Assembly (NCBI GenBank): GCA_003576915.1
Contig: QEVF01000009.1
Location: forward strand, 17,638 to 81,637
Reading direction: 5' to 3'
Origin: Planctomycetota bacterium
GTDB taxonomy: Bacteria > Planctomycetota > UBA8742 > UBA2392
Length of the DNA: 64,000 nt
The notes under the pieces are model-generated. The model was given only the letters and a program-made list of their open reading frames with translations. It did no database searches and was not told where the DNA came from. The position numbers and the translations under genes are program-made. Positions within the stretch are counted from its first letter, which is position 1. Each line of letters opens with the position of its first letter. Of the stretch, positions 33,496 through 54,717 are shown piece by piece.

Positions 33496-34481
33496 CAGGG
33501 TTCGTGTCTGGCGAGCCATGTCGAGATCTCTTCCTTGTTCATTCCCGCGCCCAAAGCCGCCATCAGCAGCAGCCTGACTTTGTGTCCCGGCAGACCCGGC
33601 GCGAACAGCAGGCCCGCCTCCTTGAGCCGGGCGCCGCCGCCATCGTAGCCGTAGGCGCCGGAAACACGGCCTCCCCAACAGCGGGTGGTCAGCGCCACCA
33701 GCAGGCCGCGTTCAACAGCCCCGGCAGCCGAGCGCGCCATGGCGGGCGGCAGGTTGCCGCGCCCCAGGGCCTCTATCACTATGGCCTTTTCGCCTCGCTC
33801 GACCAGATAGTCAATCATGCGCCCGTCCGTACCTGCGGCGGCAATGACGAGCGCGACGTCATGTTCCAGGCGCGCCGTCTCGATGCGCCGGTAAGAGACT
33901 GGCCCGCGATAAAACAGCACCTCGCCGCCATCGATAATGCCAAGGGGCCCCGTGTCCGGCGACTGGAAGGTGTCCAGCGCCTCGGTGTAGGTCTTGGTGA
34001 CTTCCCAGGCGGCGTTGATGGTCGAATTCATCACCACCATGACCCCCTTGCCGCGGCATTTGGGATGGGCGGCCACCTGACAGGCCTGAAACAGATTGAT
34101 GGGGCCGTCCCAGGACAGCATGGAGCTGGTGCGCATGGCACCCACGAACACCACGGGCTGCTCGTGGCGGTGCAGCAGGTCCACAAGGAAGGCGCTTTCC
34201 TCCAGCGTGTCGGTGCCGTGGGTGATCACGACGCCGTCAAAGCCGTCGCTGCAGGTCTTGTCCACCAGCCGCGCCAGCTCGAACATGCGCGCCGGCGTCA
34301 TGTGCGGGCCGGGCAACTGGCCAAAGTCATGCACCTTGGGCTGGCAGAAGTCCTCCAGGCCGGGCACGTCGCGCAGAATGTCGGCCCCGGCCAGCTTGGG
34401 CACGGCGCCGCGCCCCCCGTCATCAAGCATGGAGATGGTGCCGCCCGTAAAAATCAGCTTGAGTCTGGGAAGATGGGCCAT
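33495..34481 (-). CDS. ansA: L-asparaginase (type I family)
   Basis: IFTGGTISM active-site threonine motif, [10 protein letters not shown], and [10 protein letters not shown]. Confidence 0.85.
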
Positions 34482-34570
34482 GGGATGCCGCGCCTTGAGG
34501 GTGCCGCGGGCACTTTAGCGAAGGAAAAGGTAAAAGCTAACGCCGCACTCACGCAACGTTCAAGGTCCAC

Positions 34571-35603
34571 CATGACACGCGTCTCCGACTTCCGCTCCGA
34601 CACCGTGACCCGGCCCACGGCCGAAATGTACGAAGCCATGGCCAGGGCCGAACTGGGTGACGATGTGCTGGGCGACGACCCCACAGTCAACCGCCTGGAG
34701 GCCCTGGCCGCGGACATGCTCGGCAAGGAAGCAGGACTCTTCGTCACCAGCGGCACCCAGGGCAACCAGATCGGCATTGCCCTGCACTGCAAACGCGGCG
34801 ACGAACTGATCTGCGAGTTCGGGGCCCACACCTACAACAATGAAAGCGGCGCCATGGTGGTCATTGCCGGCGCCCAGCCCCGCCCCGTCAAGGGCAAGGC
34901 GGGCGTCATGGATCCGGCGGAAGTCGAAAGCCTGATCCGCCCCACCAACATCCACAATCCGCGCACGGCGCTGATCACGGTGGAGAACACCCATAACGGC
35001 GCGGGCGGCACCATCGTTCCGCTGGAGAACGTTCGCGCTCTGGGCGAAGTCGCCCGCCGCCACAAGCTCAAGTTCCACCTCGACGGGGCGCGCCTCTGGA
35101 ACGCCCATGTTGCCACGGGCATCTCGCTCAAGGACTGGTGCCGGGACTTCGATACGGTGTCTGTCTGCCTGAGCAAGGGCCTGTGCAGCCCCGCGGGAAG
35201 CATTCTCGTGGGCAGCAGGGCCGACATCGAGCGGGGCCGCTACCTGCGCAAGCAGTTGGGCGGCGGCATGCGGCAGGCCGGCATTCTGGCCGCCTGCGGC
35301 CTTGTGAGCCTGACGAAAATGGTCAGCCGCCTCGCAGAAGACCACCGCAACGCCCGGACCCTGGCGCAAGGCCTGGCCAAGCTGCCGGGCGTGACCGTGG
35401 ACCTTGCGACGGTACAGACCAACATCGTGTTCTTCGCCCTGCCCAACCGGGAGAAAGAGCTGCCTCAGCTTCTGGCGCGGCTGTCGGACAAGGGCGTGCT
35501 GGCTCTGGCCCTGGGCGGGCGCGTACGCATGGTCACGCACCACGACGTCAGCCACGAGGATGTCGCTTTGGCGCTCGACGCCTGGAAGTCCGTGATCGGT
35601 TGA
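34571..35603 (+). CDS. ltaE: Low-specificity L-threonine aldolase
   Basis: The ATG at 34571 gives [16 protein letters not shown]...[16 protein letters not shown]...[10 protein letters not shown]...VCLSKGL (PLP lysine). The upstream 355 codons of the 699-aa ORF are antisense to ansA. Confidence 0.85.
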
Positions 35604-50543: not shown

Positions 50544-50903
50544 TCAGGCCCGCCTGAACTTCTCGCAGGCGTAGGGCTGGTCTTTCAGCGCTTTGCACAG
50601 CGCGTCTTCGGTCAGCTCGCAACCCGCCTTCATGGTGATGGTCAGCGTTTCGTGTTTCTCGTCCAGGCTCACCTCGTCCACACCGTCCAGTGCGAGCACC
50701 AGCTTCCTGAGGGCGGCTGCGCCTTCGGCGTCCTTGACTCCGCTGACCGAAACTTCATATTTCGCTGCCTTCACGGGCAGGTTGCGCGGGCCTCAGCCCG
50801 CTCACAGAAAGTCGGGCGTTGCGCCCCCGGCGCCAAAGGGCGCCGCCGACAGCGCGCCGCAGGACAGTGCGGCCAGCAAAACCAGCGTGAGCATCCTGTG
50901 CAT
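50544..50903 (-). CDS. Exported protein with N-terminal UAGU motif (two in-frame TGA) followed by an HMA-like ferredoxin-fold domain; putative selenoprotein A
   Basis: GAGGAG lies 6 nt upstream of the ATG at 50903. Signal peptide MHRMLTLVLLAALSCGALSA. The TGAs at 50802-50804 and 50793-50795 are in frame with the 76-aa ORF at 50544-50774, reading ..DFL-U-AG-U-GPRNLPVKAAKYEVSVSGV.. The listed ORF starts only at an internal GTG. Confidence 0.6.
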
Positions 50904-50960
50904 GGCATTCTCCTCAGGCCCCGATTGGGACGCCGGCGCGGCCGTCGAGGTTCCGCCAAT

Positions 50961-51272
50961 TCAGGGACCGGCAGGCGTCAGGGGGCTCAACTGGCGCAGG
51001 GTTACCCCCTGTTCGAGGGCCAACCGCTCAAGGGCAGCGCGCAGGGCCTGCTCCGTGCCAAGCCAGGTGATGTGAAACTCGCCCTGGGGCTCTTCGTATA
51101 CGCTTTGGACGCCATCCAGGCGCGCGATCATCTGATCGAAACCGGGTCAGTCCTCGCCTCACTGCCCGTAATCGAGCCAGGCGAGATAGTGGTGGGGCGG
51201 GGGCGCCTGCGGTTTGGGCGGGGCCGCACAGGCGGCGAGCAGCAGCAAGGACGTGAGCCACATCAAGCGCAT
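50961..51272 (-). CDS. Lipoprotein with HMA-like domain carrying UGEDU at the metal-binding loop (two in-frame TGA); putative selenoprotein B
   Basis: The ATG at 51272 gives MRLMWLTSLLLLAAC (lipobox). The TGAs at 51159-51161 and 51147-51149 are in frame. My manual translation downstream is stop-free to the TGA at 50961: ..YLAWLDYGQ-U-GED-U-PGFDQMIARLDGVQSVYEEPQGEFHITWLGTEQALRAALERL.. I see no clear SD. Confidence 0.55.
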
Positions 51273-51283
51273 GTCATAGAATA

Positions 51284-51315
51284 GAAAACCGGGCAACTGG
51301 CGTCGCCCGGTTTTC
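51284..51315 (-). terminator. Intrinsic terminator-like hairpin downstream of selenoprotein C
   Basis: On the minus strand, GAAAACCGGGC-GACGCCAGTT-GCCCGGTTTTC is followed by TATTCT. Confidence 0.6.
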
Positions 51316-51333: not shown

Positions 51334-51753
51334 CTACTTGCCGGAGCCCTTGTTCCCGTCAGTTCCGTCCTTCTTTTCTTCCTTCTTTTCTTCCTTGGTC
51401 TCCTCGCCTTCCTTGGCGAAAGAGCGGACGCTGAACTTGCTGTCCTCGAAGGCCTTGACGACCGCATCCTTCTCGATCGTCTTGCCTTCCTTCATCGTGA
51501 CGGTGGCTTCCTGCTTCTTCTTGTCCCACGTTGCTTTTTCCACGCCTTCCAGGCTGGAGAGGGTCTTGACGACCGCAGGTCCTCACGTCGCTCACGTCGC
51601 GCCGTCGATGCCAACCTTGTAAACCGTGGGTGCTGCCTTGGCCGGCTGCTCGGCCTTCTTTTCTTCGCCCTTGCTCTCCTGGGCCTGGCAGGCCACGCCC
51701 GCCACACTGACCGAGAGCAGGAGCGCGGCAGCGACGAATCCCATCTGACGCAT
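51334..51753 (-). CDS. Exported HMA/MerP-like protein with GAT-U-AT-U-G at the GMTCxxC position (two in-frame TGA); putative selenoprotein C
   Basis: AGGAGG lies 6 nt upstream of the ATG at 51753. Signal peptide MRQMGFVAAALLLSVSVAGVAC. TGAs at 51592-51594 and 51583-51585. The readthrough product VYKVGIDGATUATUGPAVVKTLSSLEGVEKATWDKKKQEATVTMKEGKTIEKDAV aligns with the Cys paralog VVTIEGMTCIKCAKAVEKAIAAIDGVESVKVCDKSGKALVTMKEGKTLDKTAV. Confidence 0.7.
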
Positions 51754-51825
51754 GTGCATCCTCCTGTTAGAGAAATGGAAACAACCCTTCCATATGGAAC
51801 TACGGAGGGCAGCTTAGCATTCCGC

Positions 51826-51877: not shown

Positions 51878-52360
51878 CTAGCCCTTGGACTTCTCTGCCG
51901 TCTTCGCTTCCTTGTTCTCGTCCTTCTTGGGTTCGGCCTTCACGACGGACTTGGTCTTGAACTCCGTCTCCTTGAGGGCCGTCTCGACGGCGGTCTTGTC
52001 AAGGGTCTTGCCTTCCTTCATGGTGACCAGCGCCTTGCCGGACTTGTCGCAGACCTTGACGGACTCAACACCGTCAATGGCGGCAATGGCCTTCTCCACG
52101 GCCTTGGCGCACTTGATGCAGGTCATGCCTTCAATCGTCACGACAAAGCTGTTGGCCTTGACCTCGCCGCAGCCGCCACAATCCTTGGCATCGCCCTTGT
52201 CACAGCAGCCCTTGCCTTCTTCTTCACAGCACTTCTCGCCGTCCTTCTTCTCGCTCTTCTTGTCGCCGCAGCTATCACAGCCCTTGCACTGGGCCATCAG
52301 CGGGGCGCCGGCGAAAGCCAGGCCGAGGAAGAGCATCAAAGCAGTCAGGAACTTCGTCAT
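51878..52360 (-). CDS. Exported Cys-rich HMA domain protein (MerP/CopZ-like, canonical GMTCxxC)
   Basis: The ATG at 52360 gives signal peptide MTKFLTALMLFLGLAFAGAPLMA. A Cys-rich linker follows (CKGCDSCG..CCEEEGKGCCDKGDAKDCGGCG), then VVTIEGMTCIKCAKAVEKAI. Confidence 0.85.
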   Translation of the reverse strand: MTKFLTALMLFLGLAFAGAPLMAQCKGCDSCGDKKSEKKDGEKCCEEEGKGCCDKGDAKDCGGCGEVKANSFVVTIEGMTCIKCAKAVEKAIAAIDGVESVKVCDKSGKALVTMKEGKTLDKTAVETALKETEFKTKSVVKAEPKKDENKEAKTAEKSKG

Positions 52361-52459
52361 GTCGTCTCCGTTCATTAGTGCGGGGCAAGGCCCCATCGTG
52401 GTTGTCGTAAGCGGCCCATTATAGACGAACGGGCCGGGTCCGTCCTTACATCAAAATGG

Positions 52460-52936
52460 TCATTTCACCTTGTGTCGCGCCTTGAGCGCCTTCCAGTCTC
52501 CCTGCAGGTCCTCCTTGAAGCTGAAGACCTCATAGCCGAAGTCCTTGTAGATGAAGTCTGTGACAGTCTTCTCGTCCAGCCGGATCTGGGGCTTGCACAG
52601 GACGAAAAGCGTGAATTCCTCGATCACGGTGAAGCTGTCCAGCAACCCATACTGGGTGGTGAGGGCGTCCACGACGCCCGTGGTTCAGCCGCCTCAGTCG
52701 ATGCCCTTGAGGCCGATGGCGTAGATCACCTCCCTGATTTCCGGCCTGGCTTCCGGTTCCGCCTTGGGTTCAACCTTCGGCTCGGCCTTGGGCTGGGGCC
52801 TCGCGCCGCAGCCGGAGTCAACGGAAGCAGGCTCGCCGCCGCCCTTGCGCAGATGCACGGGCTGGAAGTCTTCTTTGGTGAGCTGGCAGCCGCCCGTCAG
52901 GGCCAGCAGCAACAGGGCCAGGAGTCCGCGGTTCAT
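52460..52936 (-). CDS. Lipoprotein with HMA-like domain carrying UGGU at the metal-binding loop (two in-frame TGA); putative selenoprotein E
   Basis: GAGGAG lies 6 nt upstream of the ATG at 52936. Lipobox LALTGGC. The TGAs at 52694-52696 and 52685-52687 join the listed ORFs 52694-52936 and 52460-52672 in one frame: ..EVIYAIGLKGID-U-GG-U-TTGVVDALTTQYG.. Confidence 0.65.
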
Positions 52937-52946
52937 AGCCTTCTCC

Positions 52947-53834
52947 TCAAATCAGGTAGCTGAACATCAGCATGAATTCGCCTTCATGGTAGAACTGCTT
53001 GCCGAACAGATAGCGATAAACCGGCAGGTTCAGCCCGAACTTGCACTCGATGCGGTTGGTGATGTTCATCTGCATGCCAAGCGCCAGATGTACGAAATAG
53101 CCGCCGCTGTTGTCATCGCGGTCGCCGTGCATGCGTCCGCGGTGCTCAAAGCGGGCGTCGGCCTCCACCAGCAGAATCAGGTCAAAATCGCGGTAATCCG
53201 TAAGCTGGAACACGCGATAGGCGTAGGCCAGGTGGGCCTGGGCTTCGGGGCCCGCGCCGCTGCCGTCAATCTGGGTGCTGCCGCGCCCCGCCAGGTCAAA
53301 CCAGAGGTAGTGGCGTGTGGTGCTGGTGGAAGCTGAGAGGCCGAACGTGAACGTCCAGTTGTCGTCAAACTCGTCGCCCATGGGCTCGCCGTGGCGCCGC
53401 GTGGCCGTGGGCATGTCGATCGTGGCAAACCACGACGCCTTGGTGGAACCGCCCTCAAACACGTTGTTGAGGAAGCGGTAAGTGCCGGCCAGAGAGAACT
53501 TGCGGGCGCCGGAGTAGACCTCGCTCCCGTCCTTGCTGTGTTCGCGCATGTAGAAGTAGGGCGTCTTGATCCGCATGGCGAAGTCGCGCGAGAACCCGTA
53601 GGTGACGCCGGGCTCGATGGTGTGCATGAACATGCGGCGGTCGCGCCCGTTGGAATCGGGGTTGTCGCCGCTGAAATAGCGGAAGGCCCAGTCGAACTCC
53701 TGCTCGAGTTCAAGTTCGAGGCCCTTGTTCCAGATGGTTCTGGGTCCCAGTCCGAACATGGTTTCGTGGGCGCTCACGGCGCCCGCGCCCAGAACTCAGA
53801 CCAGTGCCAGCAAAGCCAGGTGCTTCAGCGTCAC
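52947..53834 (-). CDS. Putative outer-membrane beta-barrel protein with one in-frame TGA inside the signal peptide
   Basis: The GTG at 53834 is preceded by AAGGAG with a 6-nt spacer and overlaps the merR stop (GTGA). The N-terminus MTLKHLALLALV-[TGA 53796-53798]-VLGAGAVSA|HE is a signal peptide. The body has alternating beta-strand-like sequence and ends ..MLMFSYLI. Confidence 0.6.
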
Positions 53835-54274
53835 GCCGGACTCCTTTTCTTGCCCTTGGGGGCCCTGGTTGGACCGCCTTCTATGCCTTGGAGGATGCTG
53901 CAGCATTCGGTGCTCTTGTCGCCGCCGGGGCAGCGTTCAATGAGGTCAGCGAGGTGATCGCGCATCTCGGTCAGCAGCTCGATTTTGCGAGTAATCTCGA
54001 TGAGCTTGCGCGAGGCAAGCTCGCTGACGTCTCCGCAGGTGGCGAGGTCGGAGGTGCGCAGGAACAGCAGGTCCTGAATCTCTTTGAGCGTGAAGCCGAC
54101 ATCCTTGGCGCGCTGGATGAAGCGCAGGCGCGCGACGTCGTCGTCGCCGTAGAGGCGATGGCCGCCGGCGCTGCGCTCGGGTTTGGGCAACAGACCCTCG
54201 CGCTCATAAAAGCGCACGGTTTCGATGTTGATGCCCGTGGACTCGGCCAGCTTGCCTACCGTCATGGTGGTCAT
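53831..54274 (-). CDS. merR: MerR-family regulator with the mercury-type Cys triad
   Basis: The HTH is KLAESTGINIETVRFYEREGLL. Cys80, Cys115 and Cys124 have the same spacing (35 residues, then C-x8-C) as Cys82, Cys117 and Cys126 of Tn501 MerR as I recall it. Confidence 0.85.
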   Translation of the reverse strand: MTTMTVGKLAESTGINIETVRFYEREGLLPKPERSAGGHRLYGDDDVARLRFIQRAKDVGFTLKEIQDLLFLRTSDLATCGDVSELASRKLIEITRKIELLTEMRDHLADLIERCPGGDKSTECCSILQGIEGGPTRAPKGKKRSPA

Positions 54275-54291
54275 GTGGCACCTCGGGGAAC

Positions 54292-54322
54292 AAGTTACCT
54301 CCGTAGCTTACTACGGGTTCAA
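54292..54322 (-). promoter_or_regulatory. MerR-type promoter/operator: -35 TTGAAC, 19-bp spacer containing dyad CCGTAG-N4-CTACGG, -10 TAACTT
   Basis: The minus strand reads TTGAAC CCGTAGTAAGCTACGGAGG TAACTT. The spacer counts to 19 nt. The dyad resembles the Tn501 mer operator (TCCGTAC-N4-GTACGGA). It lies ~18 nt upstream of the merR ATG. Confidence 0.75.
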
Positions 54323-54363
54323 GGGAATTGGCAGGAATCAGAACGGCAGCAACTGCGCAGAGT

Positions 54364-54391
54364 CTGGAAGCTGGTGGTCAGGGCCGGACTT
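54364..54391. repeat. Direct repeat of the tRNA-Phe 3' end (copy distal to the tRNA)
   Basis: ctgGaagctggtggtcagggccggactt matches 54525-54552 at 27 of 28 positions, with 24 contiguous identities. Confidence 0.9.
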
Positions 54392-54494
54392 CGAGCAGCC
54401 GCTGCGCGGCTGCGAGACAGCGCAGCAGCCCGGCCCACAGGCCGGGCGTAAGCGTAGCGGCGGCGAGCGCAGCGAGACGAAAACCTCACGAAAT

Positions 54495-54518
54495 GACCCC
54501 GGCAGGTCGCCCGGGGTC
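54495..54518 (-). terminator. Hairpin terminator downstream of tRNA-Phe
   Basis: GACCCCGG-N8-CCGGGGTC is followed on the minus strand by ATTTCGTGAGGTTTTCG. Confidence 0.55.
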
Positions 54519-54524
54519 ACTGTG

Positions 54525-54552
54525 CTGAAAGCTGGTGGTCAGGGCCGGACTT
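54525..54552. repeat. Direct repeat copy overlapping the 3' end of tRNA-Phe
   Basis: See 54364-54391. Confidence 0.9.
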
Positions 54553-54608
54553 GAACCGGCGACCCATGCATTTTCAGTGCATTGCTCTACCAACTGAGCT
54601 ACCTGACC
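54533..54608 (-). tRNA. tRNA-Phe (anticodon GAA), CCA encoded
   Basis: The minus strand reads GGTCAGG TA GCTC AGTTGGTA GAGC A ATGCA CTGAAAA TGCAT GGGTC GCCGG TTCAAGT CCGGC CCTGACC A CCA. This gives a complete cloverleaf. Confidence 0.9.
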
Positions 54609-54717
54609 CTGTGCCGCGTCTTGCCGCGGCAGGCGCGAAAAGGTAGCAGCAATCGGGACTACGTCAACCCGCTGGCGGCGTTTAGTATGCCGGCGGCACA
54701 TCGCACGCGGAGGCACC

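What the first reader, a model, noticed from the sequence alone, without database searches (positions are those of the whole stretch)
50961..51272. Third Sec-pair protein uses UxxxU (U-G-E-D-U) spacing, and both TGAs lie inside one local hairpin
A lipobox N-terminus (LLLLAAC) is followed by YLAWLDYGQ-U-GED-U-PGFDQMIARLDGVQSV.., where a CxxC loop would sit. The 3-residue spacing differs from the other three proteins. The mRNA segment GGGCAGU-GAGGCGAGG-ACUG(A)CCC (51144-51167) can fold so that both UGAs are within the stem-loop. The gene is not in the ORF track because the downstream part has no Met. I verified by hand that it is stop-free to 50961. No SD is evident, and the gene sits 8 nt after a terminator T-tract, so its expression is the least certain of the set.
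Basis: partly seen in the sequence, partly recalled or inferred. Interest (0 to 1): 0.7.

Follow-up and report, generated by a model that had tools for sequence, protein, structure and literature searches.

The report
Two-selenocysteine metal-binding lipoprotein gene (UxxxU)
This small planctomycete gene almost certainly reads through two in-frame UGA codons, most likely as selenocysteine, to make a lipoprotein with a U-G-E-D-U metal-binding loop.

Summary
The ORF is real. It runs on the minus strand from 51272 to 50961 (103 codons), has a lipobox (LAAC), and carries in-frame TGAs at 51161-51159 and 51149-51147.

- **Conservation.** Every relative found keeps both TGAs, the frame and the motif U-[G/S]-E-D-U-PGFDQ. 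These are the second-species loci (three NCBI assemblies plus SRA-run contigs), a Planctomycetota MAG, two metagenome contigs, and one distant locus with 44% amino-acid identity. The cluster's true stop codons drift (TGA to TAA) in the distant locus.
- **Selection.** The UGA-containing frame has the lowest dN/dS of all six frames (0.23).
- **RNA constraint.** Synonymous changes vanish for 35 codons starting just before the second UGA (P = 4.5e-5). Two invariant hairpins lie there.
It exists only in this lineage: -7.7 kcal/mol here, about -2 in close relatives, absent in the distant one.
- **Fold.** The protein looks like a divergent HMA (heavy-metal-associated) domain. The evidence is weak but consistent.
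- **Context.** It sits in a conserved module of a MerR-like regulator, an unclassified 276-aa protein and five small proteins. Three of its neighbours carry UxxU and one carries CxxC.
- **Gaps.** No Cys-form homologue exists in the public data searched. The sel genes of this lineage could not be checked.

UxxU HMA selenoproteins are already known (NF041115). I therefore rate this a new variant of a known kind.

The parts
50961..51272 (-). Gene D: a 103-codon lipoprotein ORF with two in-frame UGAs. The stop is TGA 50963-50961.
   Evidence: Translation. The frame and both TGAs are conserved in all orthologs. dN/dS is 0.23, the lowest of the six frames.
51228..51272 (-). Signal peptide ending in the lipobox L-A-A-C (Cys15, codon 51230-51228).
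   Evidence: The sequence pattern is conserved as LTAC and LGSC in orthologs, and Cys15 is invariant. No signal-peptide predictor was run.
51159..51161 (-). First in-frame UGA (codon 38), predicted Sec.
   Evidence: Invariant TGA in all lineages.
51147..51149 (-). Second in-frame UGA (codon 42), predicted Sec. It lies two residues before the predicted first helix.
   Evidence: Invariant TGA. The helix starts at residue 3 of the C-terminal model.
51144..51167 (-). It is lineage-specific and probably not functional.
   Evidence: -7.7 kcal/mol here, -2.0 and -2.2 in close orthologs, absent in L018.
51116..51146 (-). Candidate SECIS 'HP2', starting right after UGA2. It has a lower stem CCCGGU/GCCUGG, an internal loop, an upper stem CGAUC/GAUCG (51138-51125) and an apical loop AGAU (51133-51130).
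   Evidence: The stems are invariant in 4 lineages. The loop varies (AGAU, UGAU, AGUU) but keeps G at position 2. A C.U mismatch here becomes a G.U pair in L018. Energies are -10.6 to -14.6 kcal/mol.
51109..51123 (-). Candidate SECIS 'HP3': GCGCC-UGGAU-GGCGU. It is mutually exclusive with the lower stem of HP2.
   Evidence: 100% paired in 4 lineages, with one G.U to A-U change. -7.5 kcal/mol. The loop starts 28 nt after UGA2.
51048..51152 (-). A run of 35 codons (41-75) with no synonymous substitution between species.
   Evidence: Codon table. dS is 0.125 here against 0.47 and 0.91 in the flanks. P = 4.5e-5 pre-specified, 9e-4 anywhere.
51284..51315 (-). Intrinsic-terminator-like hairpin between genes C and D.
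   Evidence: Scan. The same structure occurs with a different sequence in L018.
50544..50903 (-). Gene E: a secreted protein with U-A-G-U ahead of a degenerate HMA domain.
   Evidence: Its two hairpins carry 3 compensatory pairs.
51334..51759 (-). Gene C: an HMA protein with GAT-U-AT-U.
   Evidence: Pfam HMA 2e-7. NF041115 UxxU_metal_bind scores 33.5 bits, below its cutoff.
51878..52396 (-). Gene B: a Cys-rich HMA protein with the canonical GMTCIKC motif. It is the Cys-form paralog in the operon.
   Evidence: Pfam HMA 5.5e-9. NCBIfam CopZ- and MerP-type hits.
52460..52936 (-). Gene A: a lipoprotein with GID-U-GG-U.
   Evidence: No family hit.
52947..53777 (-). A conserved 276-aa protein with no family match. 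I guess it may be an outer-membrane barrel.
   Evidence: No Pfam, NCBIfam or PDB match. It is present in every ortholog cluster.
53831..54274 (-). MerR-family heavy-metal-type regulator at the head of the cluster.
   Evidence: Pfam MerR_1 4.6e-23. TIGR02051 MerR scores 132 bits (cutoff 151) and the ZntR model NF007069 scores 127 bits (cutoff 143).

Best explanation
Gene D encodes a small membrane-anchored lipoprotein of about 88 residues when mature.

**Shown.** The ribosome must read through both UGA codons to make it. The reading frame, the lipobox, both TGAs and the motif U-[G/S]-E-D-U-PGFDQ-[M/L]-IARL-[D/E]-GVQ are conserved and under purifying selection.

**Inferred.**
- The two UGAs are decoded as selenocysteine by SelB and tRNA-Sec.
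- Decoding is directed by RNA structure in the roughly 45 nt that follow the second UGA. The candidates are an invariant hairpin HP2 with an NGNU loop and an overlapping hairpin HP3 with a UGGAW loop. Either one element serves both UGAs, or HP2 serves UGA1 (25 nt to its loop) and HP3 serves UGA2 (28 nt to its loop).
- The protein adopts a divergent HMA-like beta-alpha-beta-beta-alpha-beta fold. The two selenols sit in the loop between strand 1 and helix 1, one residue further apart than in CxxC or UxxU domains.
- The protein binds a soft metal ion such as Hg(II), Cd(II), Pb(II) or Cu(I).
- It acts as one member of a MerR-controlled set of five extracytoplasmic metal-binding proteins: A, C, D and E with Sec pairs, and B with Cys.
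- Transcription reaches D by read-through of the conserved terminator after gene C, or from an unrecognised promoter.
For: - **Reading frame.** Both in-frame TGAs and the frame are kept in all relatives found. These are the second-species loci L001-L008 from three NCBI assemblies and five SRA-run (Logan) contigs, a Planctomycetota MAG (L017), two metagenome contigs (L019, L020), and the distant L018 at 44% identity and 58% GC. Indels upstream of the UGAs are whole codons.
- **Selection.** dN/dS is 0.23 overall, 0.29 upstream of UGA1 and 0.08 in the C-terminal third. It is the lowest of all six frames.
- **Stop codons.** The true stops of genes A, B and E change between lineages (TGA or TAG to TAA). 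All eight internal TGAs of the operon never change.
- **UGA is still a stop here.** D, A and E all end in TGA.
- **RNA constraint.** No synonymous change occurs in codons 41-75, against 21 elsewhere in the gene. HP2 and HP3 are 100% paired in the four lineages. G is fixed at loop position 2. The single stem change is G.U to A-U. These features fit the bSECIS consensus quoted in PMC13188914.
- **The same logic in a neighbour.** Gene E has three compensatory base-pair changes in hairpins next to its UGAs.
- **HMA likeness.**
  - hhalign against paralogs B and C aligns strand 1, the loop and helix 1 (pairwise E 0.0039).
  - A PDB profile search lists ATP7B metal-binding domains among the hits with the lowest E-values (0.067 to 1.1).
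  - An AlphaFold model of the 61 residues after UGA2 has pLDDT 85.6 and the order alpha-beta-beta-alpha.
  - Its low-rmsd Foldseek hits are HMA domains: ATP7B at probability 0.91, NmerA at TM 0.57, CsoZ and CopZ.
- **Context.** The regulator is MerR/ZntR-like. Paralog C is an HMA hit that also matches the UxxU metal-binding selenoprotein model.
- **Module.** The module running from the unclassified protein through gene E (the unclassified protein is cut at L018's contig end) keeps its order in L018 although the downstream neighbour differs.
- **Phylum.** Selenocysteine machinery is documented in several Planctomycetes (PMC4807772).
Against: - No selA, selB, selD or tRNA-Sec lies in the 64-kb window or in the fetched flanks. 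The rest of the genome could not be searched.
- No Cys-containing homologue of D exists in any database searched. The classic Sec/Cys-pair criterion is therefore met only through remote paralogy.
- No Pfam or NCBIfam model recognises D. All HMA evidence is below significance thresholds.
- The hairpin stems are invariant, so they offer no covariation.
- Overall folding energy is no better than shuffled sequence.
- Neither hairpin satisfies the 16-37 nt spacing rule for both UGAs.
- D has no SD and starts 12 nt after the terminator stem.
Confidence: 0.65

Rival explanations
1. The UGAs are recoded, but one or both are read as cysteine rather than selenocysteine. A SECIS-dependent tRNA of the selC*/tRNA-ReC type would do this. 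The product would then be a CxxxC or mixed Cys/Sec protein.
For: PMC13582414 reports that tRNA-ReC-like genes are significantly enriched in genomes whose hydrogenases carry UXXU motifs. It warns that such UGAs may be read as Cys. Nothing in the window distinguishes the two outcomes.
Against: No such tRNA lies in the window or the fetched loci. If Cys were the product, ordinary UGY codons would be expected to appear in some lineage. All eight TGAs of the operon are invariant, and no Cys-form ortholog exists.
Confidence: 0.12
2. The protein is made as proposed, but the Sec pair is a redox centre (a diselenide/selenol couple) rather than a metal ligand. It would act as an extracytoplasmic oxidoreductase.
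For: Most known bacterial selenoproteins are redox enzymes. UxxU also occurs in Prx-like oxidoreductases (PMC13188914). D has no significant match to a metal-binding family.
Against: The predicted alpha-beta-beta-alpha order and the best structural neighbours are HMA domains, not thioredoxin folds. The operon contains canonical HMA proteins and a MerR/ZntR-type metal sensor.
Confidence: 0.12
3. There is no read-through. The locus is a decayed or split gene. The only products are the 37-residue N-terminal peptide, the 56-residue ORF that public gene callers annotate, or both.
For: Gene callers annotate only the 56-aa (or 53-aa) piece. There is no SD, and a terminator lies just upstream. Sec machinery is unverified.
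Against: - Both TGAs, the frame and the peptide GED...PGFDQ between UGA1 and Met48 are conserved in L018, where dS is saturated elsewhere.
- Met48 is Leu in L018.
- There are no frameshifts or other stop codons in any lineage.
- The same two-UGA pattern sits at the CxxC position in three neighbouring genes.
Confidence: 0.05
4. The real gene is the long plus-strand ORF (50652-51284, 210 aa) antisense to D and E. The minus-strand frames would then be shadows.
For: The antisense frame is open across D and E in all four lineages.
Against: Its dN/dS is 0.58 against 0.23 for the D frame. Its product is Arg/Gly-rich low complexity. Such shadow ORFs are expected at 65% GC. The signal peptides, lipoboxes and HMA matches are all on the minus strand.
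Confidence: 0.02

Closest known systems
NF041115 'UxxU_metal_bind' metal-binding (seleno)protein, listed as 'putative mercuric reductase, UxxU, 2 Sec' in PMC13188914 and PMC9312934
   Same: A small HMA-type domain in which both metal-binding cysteines are replaced by selenocysteine. It is a predicted heavy-metal ligand. Neighbouring gene C matches this model weakly (33.5 bits).
   Different: D gives no hit to the model. Its spacing is U-x3-U rather than U-x2-U. It carries a lipoprotein signal. It has no Cys-form relatives.
MerP (TIGR02052) and CopZ/Atx1-type HMA metallochaperones (PF00403)
   Same: D shows a secreted or anchored ferredoxin-like domain of about 70 residues. Two soft ligands sit between strand 1 and helix 1. 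The operon is headed by a MerR-type regulator. The best structural neighbours of the partial model are HMA domains.
   Different: D has no significant sequence match. It has Sec instead of Cys, one extra loop residue, and an acidic GED insert. No merT, merA or P-type ATPase lies in the cluster.
UXXU-type Group 4 [NiFeSe] hydrogenases (PMC13582414)
   Same: Two closely spaced UGAs at metal-ligand positions. A SECIS-like hairpin lies downstream with G at loop position 1 or 2. The authors propose that one SECIS serves both codons.
   Different: It is an unrelated protein family. Its UGAs are 9 nt apart (start to start) rather than 12 nt. Cys-form homologues are abundant there.
Sco1/SenC copper chaperones (CxxxC motif), recalled from general knowledge
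   Same: A three-residue spacing between the two soft ligands of a membrane-anchored extracytoplasmic metal-binding protein.
   Different: Sco proteins are thioredoxin-fold proteins of about 200 residues with an additional His ligand. D is about 88 residues, and its predicted secondary-structure order is HMA-like. No sequence similarity was detected.

Membership tests
Bacterial selenoprotein gene (SECIS-dependent UGA recoding) | In-frame UGA conserved in orthologs, with coding conservation on both sides. | tested here: met
   Both TGAs are invariant in all lineages. dN/dS is 0.29 upstream and 0.08 downstream, the lowest of six frames.
Bacterial selenoprotein gene (SECIS-dependent UGA recoding) | A bSECIS hairpin downstream of the UGA. 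It needs a 4-16 bp upper stem, a 3-9 nt loop with G in position 1 or 2, 16-37 nt from UGA to loop, and MFE of -7.5 kcal/mol or lower (PMC13188914). | tested here: inconclusive
   HP2 meets the rules for UGA1 (25 nt) but not for UGA2 (13 nt). HP3 meets them for UGA2 (28 nt) but not for UGA1 (40 nt). The stems are invariant, so there is no covariation. Synonymous suppression supports an RNA constraint.
Bacterial selenoprotein gene (SECIS-dependent UGA recoding) | Cys-containing homologues that align Cys with the UGA positions. | tested here: not met
   No Cys-form relative of D was found in 5.8 billion or 1.84 billion proteins, or in the genome, metagenome and plasmid scans. Only the remote paralog B (CxxC) aligns weakly.
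Bacterial selenoprotein gene (SECIS-dependent UGA recoding) | selA, selB, selC (tRNA-Sec) and selD present in the same genome. | not testable with these tools
   They are absent from the window and the fetched flanks. The rest of the genome and the MAGs could not be queried. The trait is known in other Planctomycetes (PMC4807772).
HMA domain (PF00403) | A significant match to the family profile. | tested here: not met
   There is no HMA hit for D at E <= 1 in Pfam or NCBIfam. hhalign against the operon's HMA paralogs gives E 0.0039 and probability 8.7%.
HMA domain (PF00403) | A beta-alpha-beta-beta-alpha-beta ferredoxin-like fold with ligands in the loop between strand 1 and helix 1. | tested here: inconclusive
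The model has pLDDT 85.6 and the order alpha-beta-beta-alpha. The best low-rmsd hits are HMA domains, but all have E >= 0.2.
HMA domain (PF00403) | An M/T-C-x-x-C ligand motif. | tested here: not met
   D has Q-U-G-E-D-U, with three residues between the ligands. This holds in all orthologs.
NF041115 UxxU metal-binding (seleno)protein | An HMM score at or above the curated cutoff (95 bits), and a UxxU motif. | tested here: not met
   D gives no hit. Paralog C scores 33.5 bits and B scores 35.8 bits. The motif is UxxxU.
Bacterial lipoprotein | An N-terminal signal peptide ending in the lipobox [LVI][ASTVI][GAS]C. | tested here: met
   LAAC, LTAC and LGSC occur at the same position, and the Cys is invariant. 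This is a pattern match only. No dedicated predictor was run.

The most novel reading that the evidence does not exclude
D would be an orphan, obligately selenium-dependent metal-binding protein with a U-x3-U diselenolate site. It sits in an operon that spends eight Sec codons on four extracytoplasmic proteins, which would make the operon a selenium-based heavy-metal capture or relay system in Planctomycetota. Its two UGAs, 12 nt apart start to start, would be decoded in one of two ways. Either tandem SECIS hairpins each serve one codon at similar spacing (25 and 28 nt), or a single element works at 13 and 25 nt. Either way, the known positional rules of bacterial SECIS function would be extended.
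Probability: 0.25. Interest if true: 0.75.

Novelty: new variant of a known kind. Interest (0 to 1): 0.58.

Why it matters
- Di-selenocysteine HMA proteins are already catalogued, but only with UxxU spacing and with Cys-form relatives.
- D shows that a Sec pair can sit in a different geometry, in a family that has no Cys form at all. Prediction pipelines based on Sec/Cys pairs cannot find such a family.
- D also gives a natural test case for how bacterial SelB and SECIS handle two UGAs 12 nt apart.
- Together with its three neighbours, D points to selenium being used as a metal ligand rather than a redox catalyst in an extracytoplasmic resistance or trafficking system.
- That use would be of interest for mercury and cadmium biogeochemistry and for engineering ultra-high-affinity metal binders.

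Tried and rejected
- **Full-length modelling and HMMER search.** Only the 61 residues after UGA2 could be used.
- **Rfam.** It found nothing but tRNA-Phe at gathering thresholds. It found only chance snoRNA hits at E <= 10 in the cluster.
- **L021.** This metagenome hit proved to be a false positive, an MnmE-like 'ELIARLEGVQ'.
- **Long repetitive proteins.** The HMMER hits P0003-P0007 and P0009 are low-complexity matches to the ALRAALERLA helix. This was judged from P0005 and from the many short matched stretches, and they were ignored.
- **Plasmids.** The plasmid collection gave no match.
- **Other recoded genes.** A scan of the window for further single-TGA-interrupted frames found nothing convincing outside the cluster.
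- **Global UGA reassignment (code 4 or 25).** I considered this and rejected it, because D, A and E themselves terminate at TGA.
- **Leaderless promoter.** I looked for a leaderless-type promoter (TATTCT five nt before the ATG), but no -35 element or conservation supports it.
- **Common hairpin position.** I looked for one in all four Sec genes. Each has a small conserved hairpin whose loop starts 21-26 nt after UGA1. The Cys paralog B has comparable hairpins by chance, so hairpin presence alone carries little weight.

Full report
**1. What is in the sequence**

On the minus strand, an ATG at 51272 opens a frame that runs to TGA 50963-50961. The frame has 103 codons and is interrupted only by TGA at codon 38 (51161-51159) and codon 42 (51149-51147). 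The product reads MRLMWLTSLLLLAAC..HHYLAWLDYGQ-U-GED-U-PGFDQMIARLDGVQSV..AGP.

D is the fourth of five tandem small genes on this strand:
- A, 52936-52460, GID-U-GG-U.
- B, 52396-51878, Cys-rich with the canonical GMTCIKC motif.
- C, 51759-51334, GAT-U-AT-U.
- D, the finding.
- E, 50903-50544, FL-U-AG-U.

Upstream of these lie a 276-aa protein with no family match and a MerR-family regulator. Only D has three residues between its UGAs.

Two details of the finding are wrong or overstated. First, the downstream part does have a Met at codon 48. The 56-aa ORF 50961-51131 is in the ORF list, and public gene callers annotate it on its own. Second, the hairpin is discussed in section 4.

**2. Is it translated through both UGAs?**

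A word-indexed search of 5.8 billion proteins found only the window's own 56-aa fragment and an 82%-identical one. The contigs that carry them show the same cluster in a second species.
- Three NCBI assemblies carry it (GCA_013328915.1, GCA_013328935.1, GCA_013328955.1), along with many SRA-run contigs.
- A scan of GTDB species representatives found one genome, 'MAG: Planctomycetota bacterium isolate Bin_91R'.
- A metagenome scan added two contigs.
- An exhaustive HMMER search of 1.84 billion representatives added one distant relative, L018 from a JGI metagenome. It has 58% GC and 44% amino-acid identity.

In every one of these loci the frame from the start codon to the stop is intact and both TGAs are present. 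The motif U-[G/S]-E-D-U-PGFDQ-[M/L]-IARL-[D/E]-GVQ is conserved. The lipobox is kept as LAAC, LTAC or LGSC, and indels upstream of the UGAs are whole codons.

Between the window and the second species:
- dN/dS is 0.23 overall, 0.29 for codons 1-37 and 0.08 for codons 76-103.
- This is the lowest value of the six frames. The open antisense 'shadow' frame scores 0.58.

The true stop codons of A, B and E change between lineages (TGA or TAG to TAA in L018). All eight internal TGAs of the operon never change. UGA also still ends genes D, A and E, so the code is not globally reassigned.

I take read-through as established as far as sequence analysis can establish it.

**3. Sec, and the machinery**

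The UGAs of paralog C sit exactly where the Cys-form paralog B has its CxxC. With U changed to C, C matches Pfam HMA (2e-7) and the curated model for UxxU metal-binding selenoproteins, though below its cutoff.

Position-specific UGA recoding in bacteria is known only for the SelB/SECIS system. Several Planctomycetes have that system (PMC4807772).

I could not verify it for this lineage. The window and all fetched flanks contain no tRNA-Sec, selA, selB or selD, and the tools gave no way to search the remaining contigs of the MAGs.

A recent paper notes that SECIS-dependent tRNA-ReC can insert Cys at such UGAs. It also reports that this tRNA is enriched in genomes with UXXU motifs (PMC13582414). 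This remains a live alternative.

No Cys-form homologue of D exists in any collection searched. The Sec/Cys-pair criterion therefore fails for D itself.

**4. RNA structure**

A synonymous G-to-A change reduces it to about -2 kcal/mol in the close relatives. Its 5' arm is absent in L018, where 6 of 7 pairs are broken. The 96-nt region folds no better than shuffles, with z = -0.26. It is not a conserved element.

What is conserved lies just downstream.
- Among the window, L001 and L017 there are 21 codons with synonymous differences. None falls in codons 41-75 (51152-51048).
- dS there is 0.125, against 0.47 and 0.91 in the flanks.
- The probability is 4.5e-5 for that pre-specified stretch, and 9e-4 for a run of that length anywhere in the gene.
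- Against L018, dS in the 21 codons from UGA1 is 0.40, while the rest of the gene is saturated.

Two hairpins lie in this stretch and pair in all four lineages.
- **HP2** has an upper stem CGAUC/GAUCG (51138-51125) and a loop that reads AGAU, UGAU or AGUU. It can extend to a lower stem that starts right after UGA2 (51146-51116), giving -10.6 to -14.6 kcal/mol.
- **HP3** is GCGCC-UGGAW-GGCGU (51123-51109), at -7.5 kcal/mol. It shows one G.U to A-U change.

Both keep G at loop position 2, as the bacterial SECIS consensus requires (PMC13188914). The spacing from UGA to loop is as follows:

| Hairpin | From UGA1 | From UGA2 |
|---|---|---|
| HP2 | 25 nt | 13 nt |
| HP3 | 40 nt | 28 nt |

The consensus range is 16-37 nt. 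Either one element tolerates an unusual distance, or each UGA has its own hairpin.

The stems are invariant, so there is no covariation for D. In neighbouring gene E, three compensatory pair changes support two hairpins next to its UGAs, one of which holds UGA2 in its loop.

All four Sec genes have a small conserved hairpin whose loop starts 21-26 nt after UGA1. The Cys paralog B also has chance hairpins, so presence alone is weak evidence.

**5. What the protein is**

No Pfam or NCBIfam model hits D. The weaker evidence all points the same way.
- By hand, the sequence fits the HMA pattern: strand 1 (YLAWLDY), ligand loop, helix 1 ending in L-D-G-V, strands 2 and 3, helix 2, strand 4.
- hhalign against paralogs B and C aligns the first 43 columns in that register (pairwise E 0.0039, probability 8.7%).
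- A profile search of the PDB lists three ATP7B metal-binding-domain entries, at E 0.067, 0.29 and 1.1, interleaved with de novo designed proteins and other unrelated chains.
- An AlphaFold model of the 61 residues after UGA2 has pLDDT 85.6 and the order helix-strand-strand-helix.
- Its low-rmsd Foldseek matches are dominated by HMA domains: ATP7B at probability 0.91, the NmerA domain of mercuric reductase at TM 0.57, CsoZ, CopZ and PacS. None reaches significance.

I conclude that D is a divergent HMA-like domain with one extra residue in the ligand loop. I hold this with moderate confidence.

**6. Context and likely function**

- The regulator scores best against MerR (132 bits, cutoff 151) and ZntR (127 bits). 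This marks it as a divalent or soft-metal sensor type.
- Gene A has Asp before its first Sec (D-U-G-G-U). From general knowledge, this recalls the DCxxC motif of ZntA.
- The module from the unclassified protein through gene E keeps its order in L018, although the downstream neighbour differs: a PFOR_II gene there, surE here.
- Intrinsic-terminator-like hairpins follow B and C. The one before D is conserved in structure but not in sequence in L018. This suggests graded expression by partial read-through.
- D lacks an SD in three lineages but has GAGG in L018.

The most likely role is therefore a membrane-anchored, selenolate-based binder of a soft metal, working with its four neighbours. The identity of the metal and the direction of any transfer are inference.

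**7. Comparison with known systems and novelty**

A 2026 review lists 119 prokaryotic selenoprotein families. Few have more than one Sec. UxxU is recorded for Prx-like proteins, FmdB-family proteins, and the HMA-type 'metal-binding protein' NF041115. UXXU hydrogenases were added in 2026.

D belongs to the same kind, a metal-binding domain with a Sec pair. It differs in four ways:
- It fails the membership tests for NF041115, MerP and Pfam HMA.
- It has UxxxU spacing.
- It is a lipoprotein.
- It has no Cys form.

I rate it a new variant of a known kind and of moderate interest. The operon as a whole, with eight Sec codons in four extracytoplasmic proteins, is more striking than D alone.

Noticed in passing
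window 50786-50801 and 50766-50781 (minus strand, gene E); L018 around 2183-2240: In gene E a 6-bp hairpin starts right after UGA1 and holds UGA2 in its UGAG loop. A second hairpin follows (CUGCC-CGUGAA-GGCAG). Together they show three compensatory base-pair changes in the distant ortholog. This is the best covariation evidence for RNA structure anywhere in the operon.
   Followed up: partly
window 50544-50903 (minus strand): In gene E the U-x-x-U pair lies about 15 residues upstream of an HMA-like domain. The usual CxxC loop of that domain is degenerate (GVKDAEG). The ligand pair therefore seems to have moved out of the domain.
   Followed up: no
window 52460-52936 (minus strand): Gene A has Asp directly before its Sec pair (GID-U-GG-U), which resembles the DCxxC motif of Zn/Cd/Pb ATPase domains. 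Its C-terminal ~75 residues match no family.
   Followed up: no
window 51878-52396 (minus strand): Gene B carries a very Cys-rich N-terminal stretch (CKGCDSCG..CCEEEGKGCCDKGDAKDCGGCG) before a canonical HMA domain. A strong terminator-like hairpin follows (51858-51833, 11 bp plus T7).
   Followed up: no
window 52947-53777 (minus strand): A conserved 276-aa protein sits between the MerR-like regulator and gene A. It has no Pfam, NCBIfam or PDB sequence match. Its alternating hydrophobic pattern suggests a beta-barrel, but this was not tested.
   Followed up: partly
window 50652-51284 (plus strand): A 210-codon antisense ORF overlapping D and E stays open in all four lineages. dN/dS (0.58 against 0.23) and its Arg/Gly-rich product indicate a shadow ORF of the GC-rich sense genes.
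   Followed up: yes
window 54275-54717; L001 5054-6880: tRNA-Phe lies about 260 nt from the MerR-like gene in the window. In the sister species a 357-aa gene sits between them, and in L002 a different 435-aa gene does. The cluster has about the lowest GC of any 3.7-kb stretch in the window (0.618 against a mean of 0.651). This hints at a variable, possibly acquired region next to a tRNA gene.
   Followed up: partly
stop codons of genes A, B and E in the window and in L018: True stop codons differ between lineages (A and E TGA to TAA, B TAG to TAA). All eight internal TGAs of genes A, C, D and E are invariant.
   Followed up: yes
window 33504-35603 (plus strand): A 699-aa protein whose C-terminal half is a strong Beta_elim_lyase match (4.6e-106). 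Its ~360-residue N-terminal half matches nothing.
   Followed up: no
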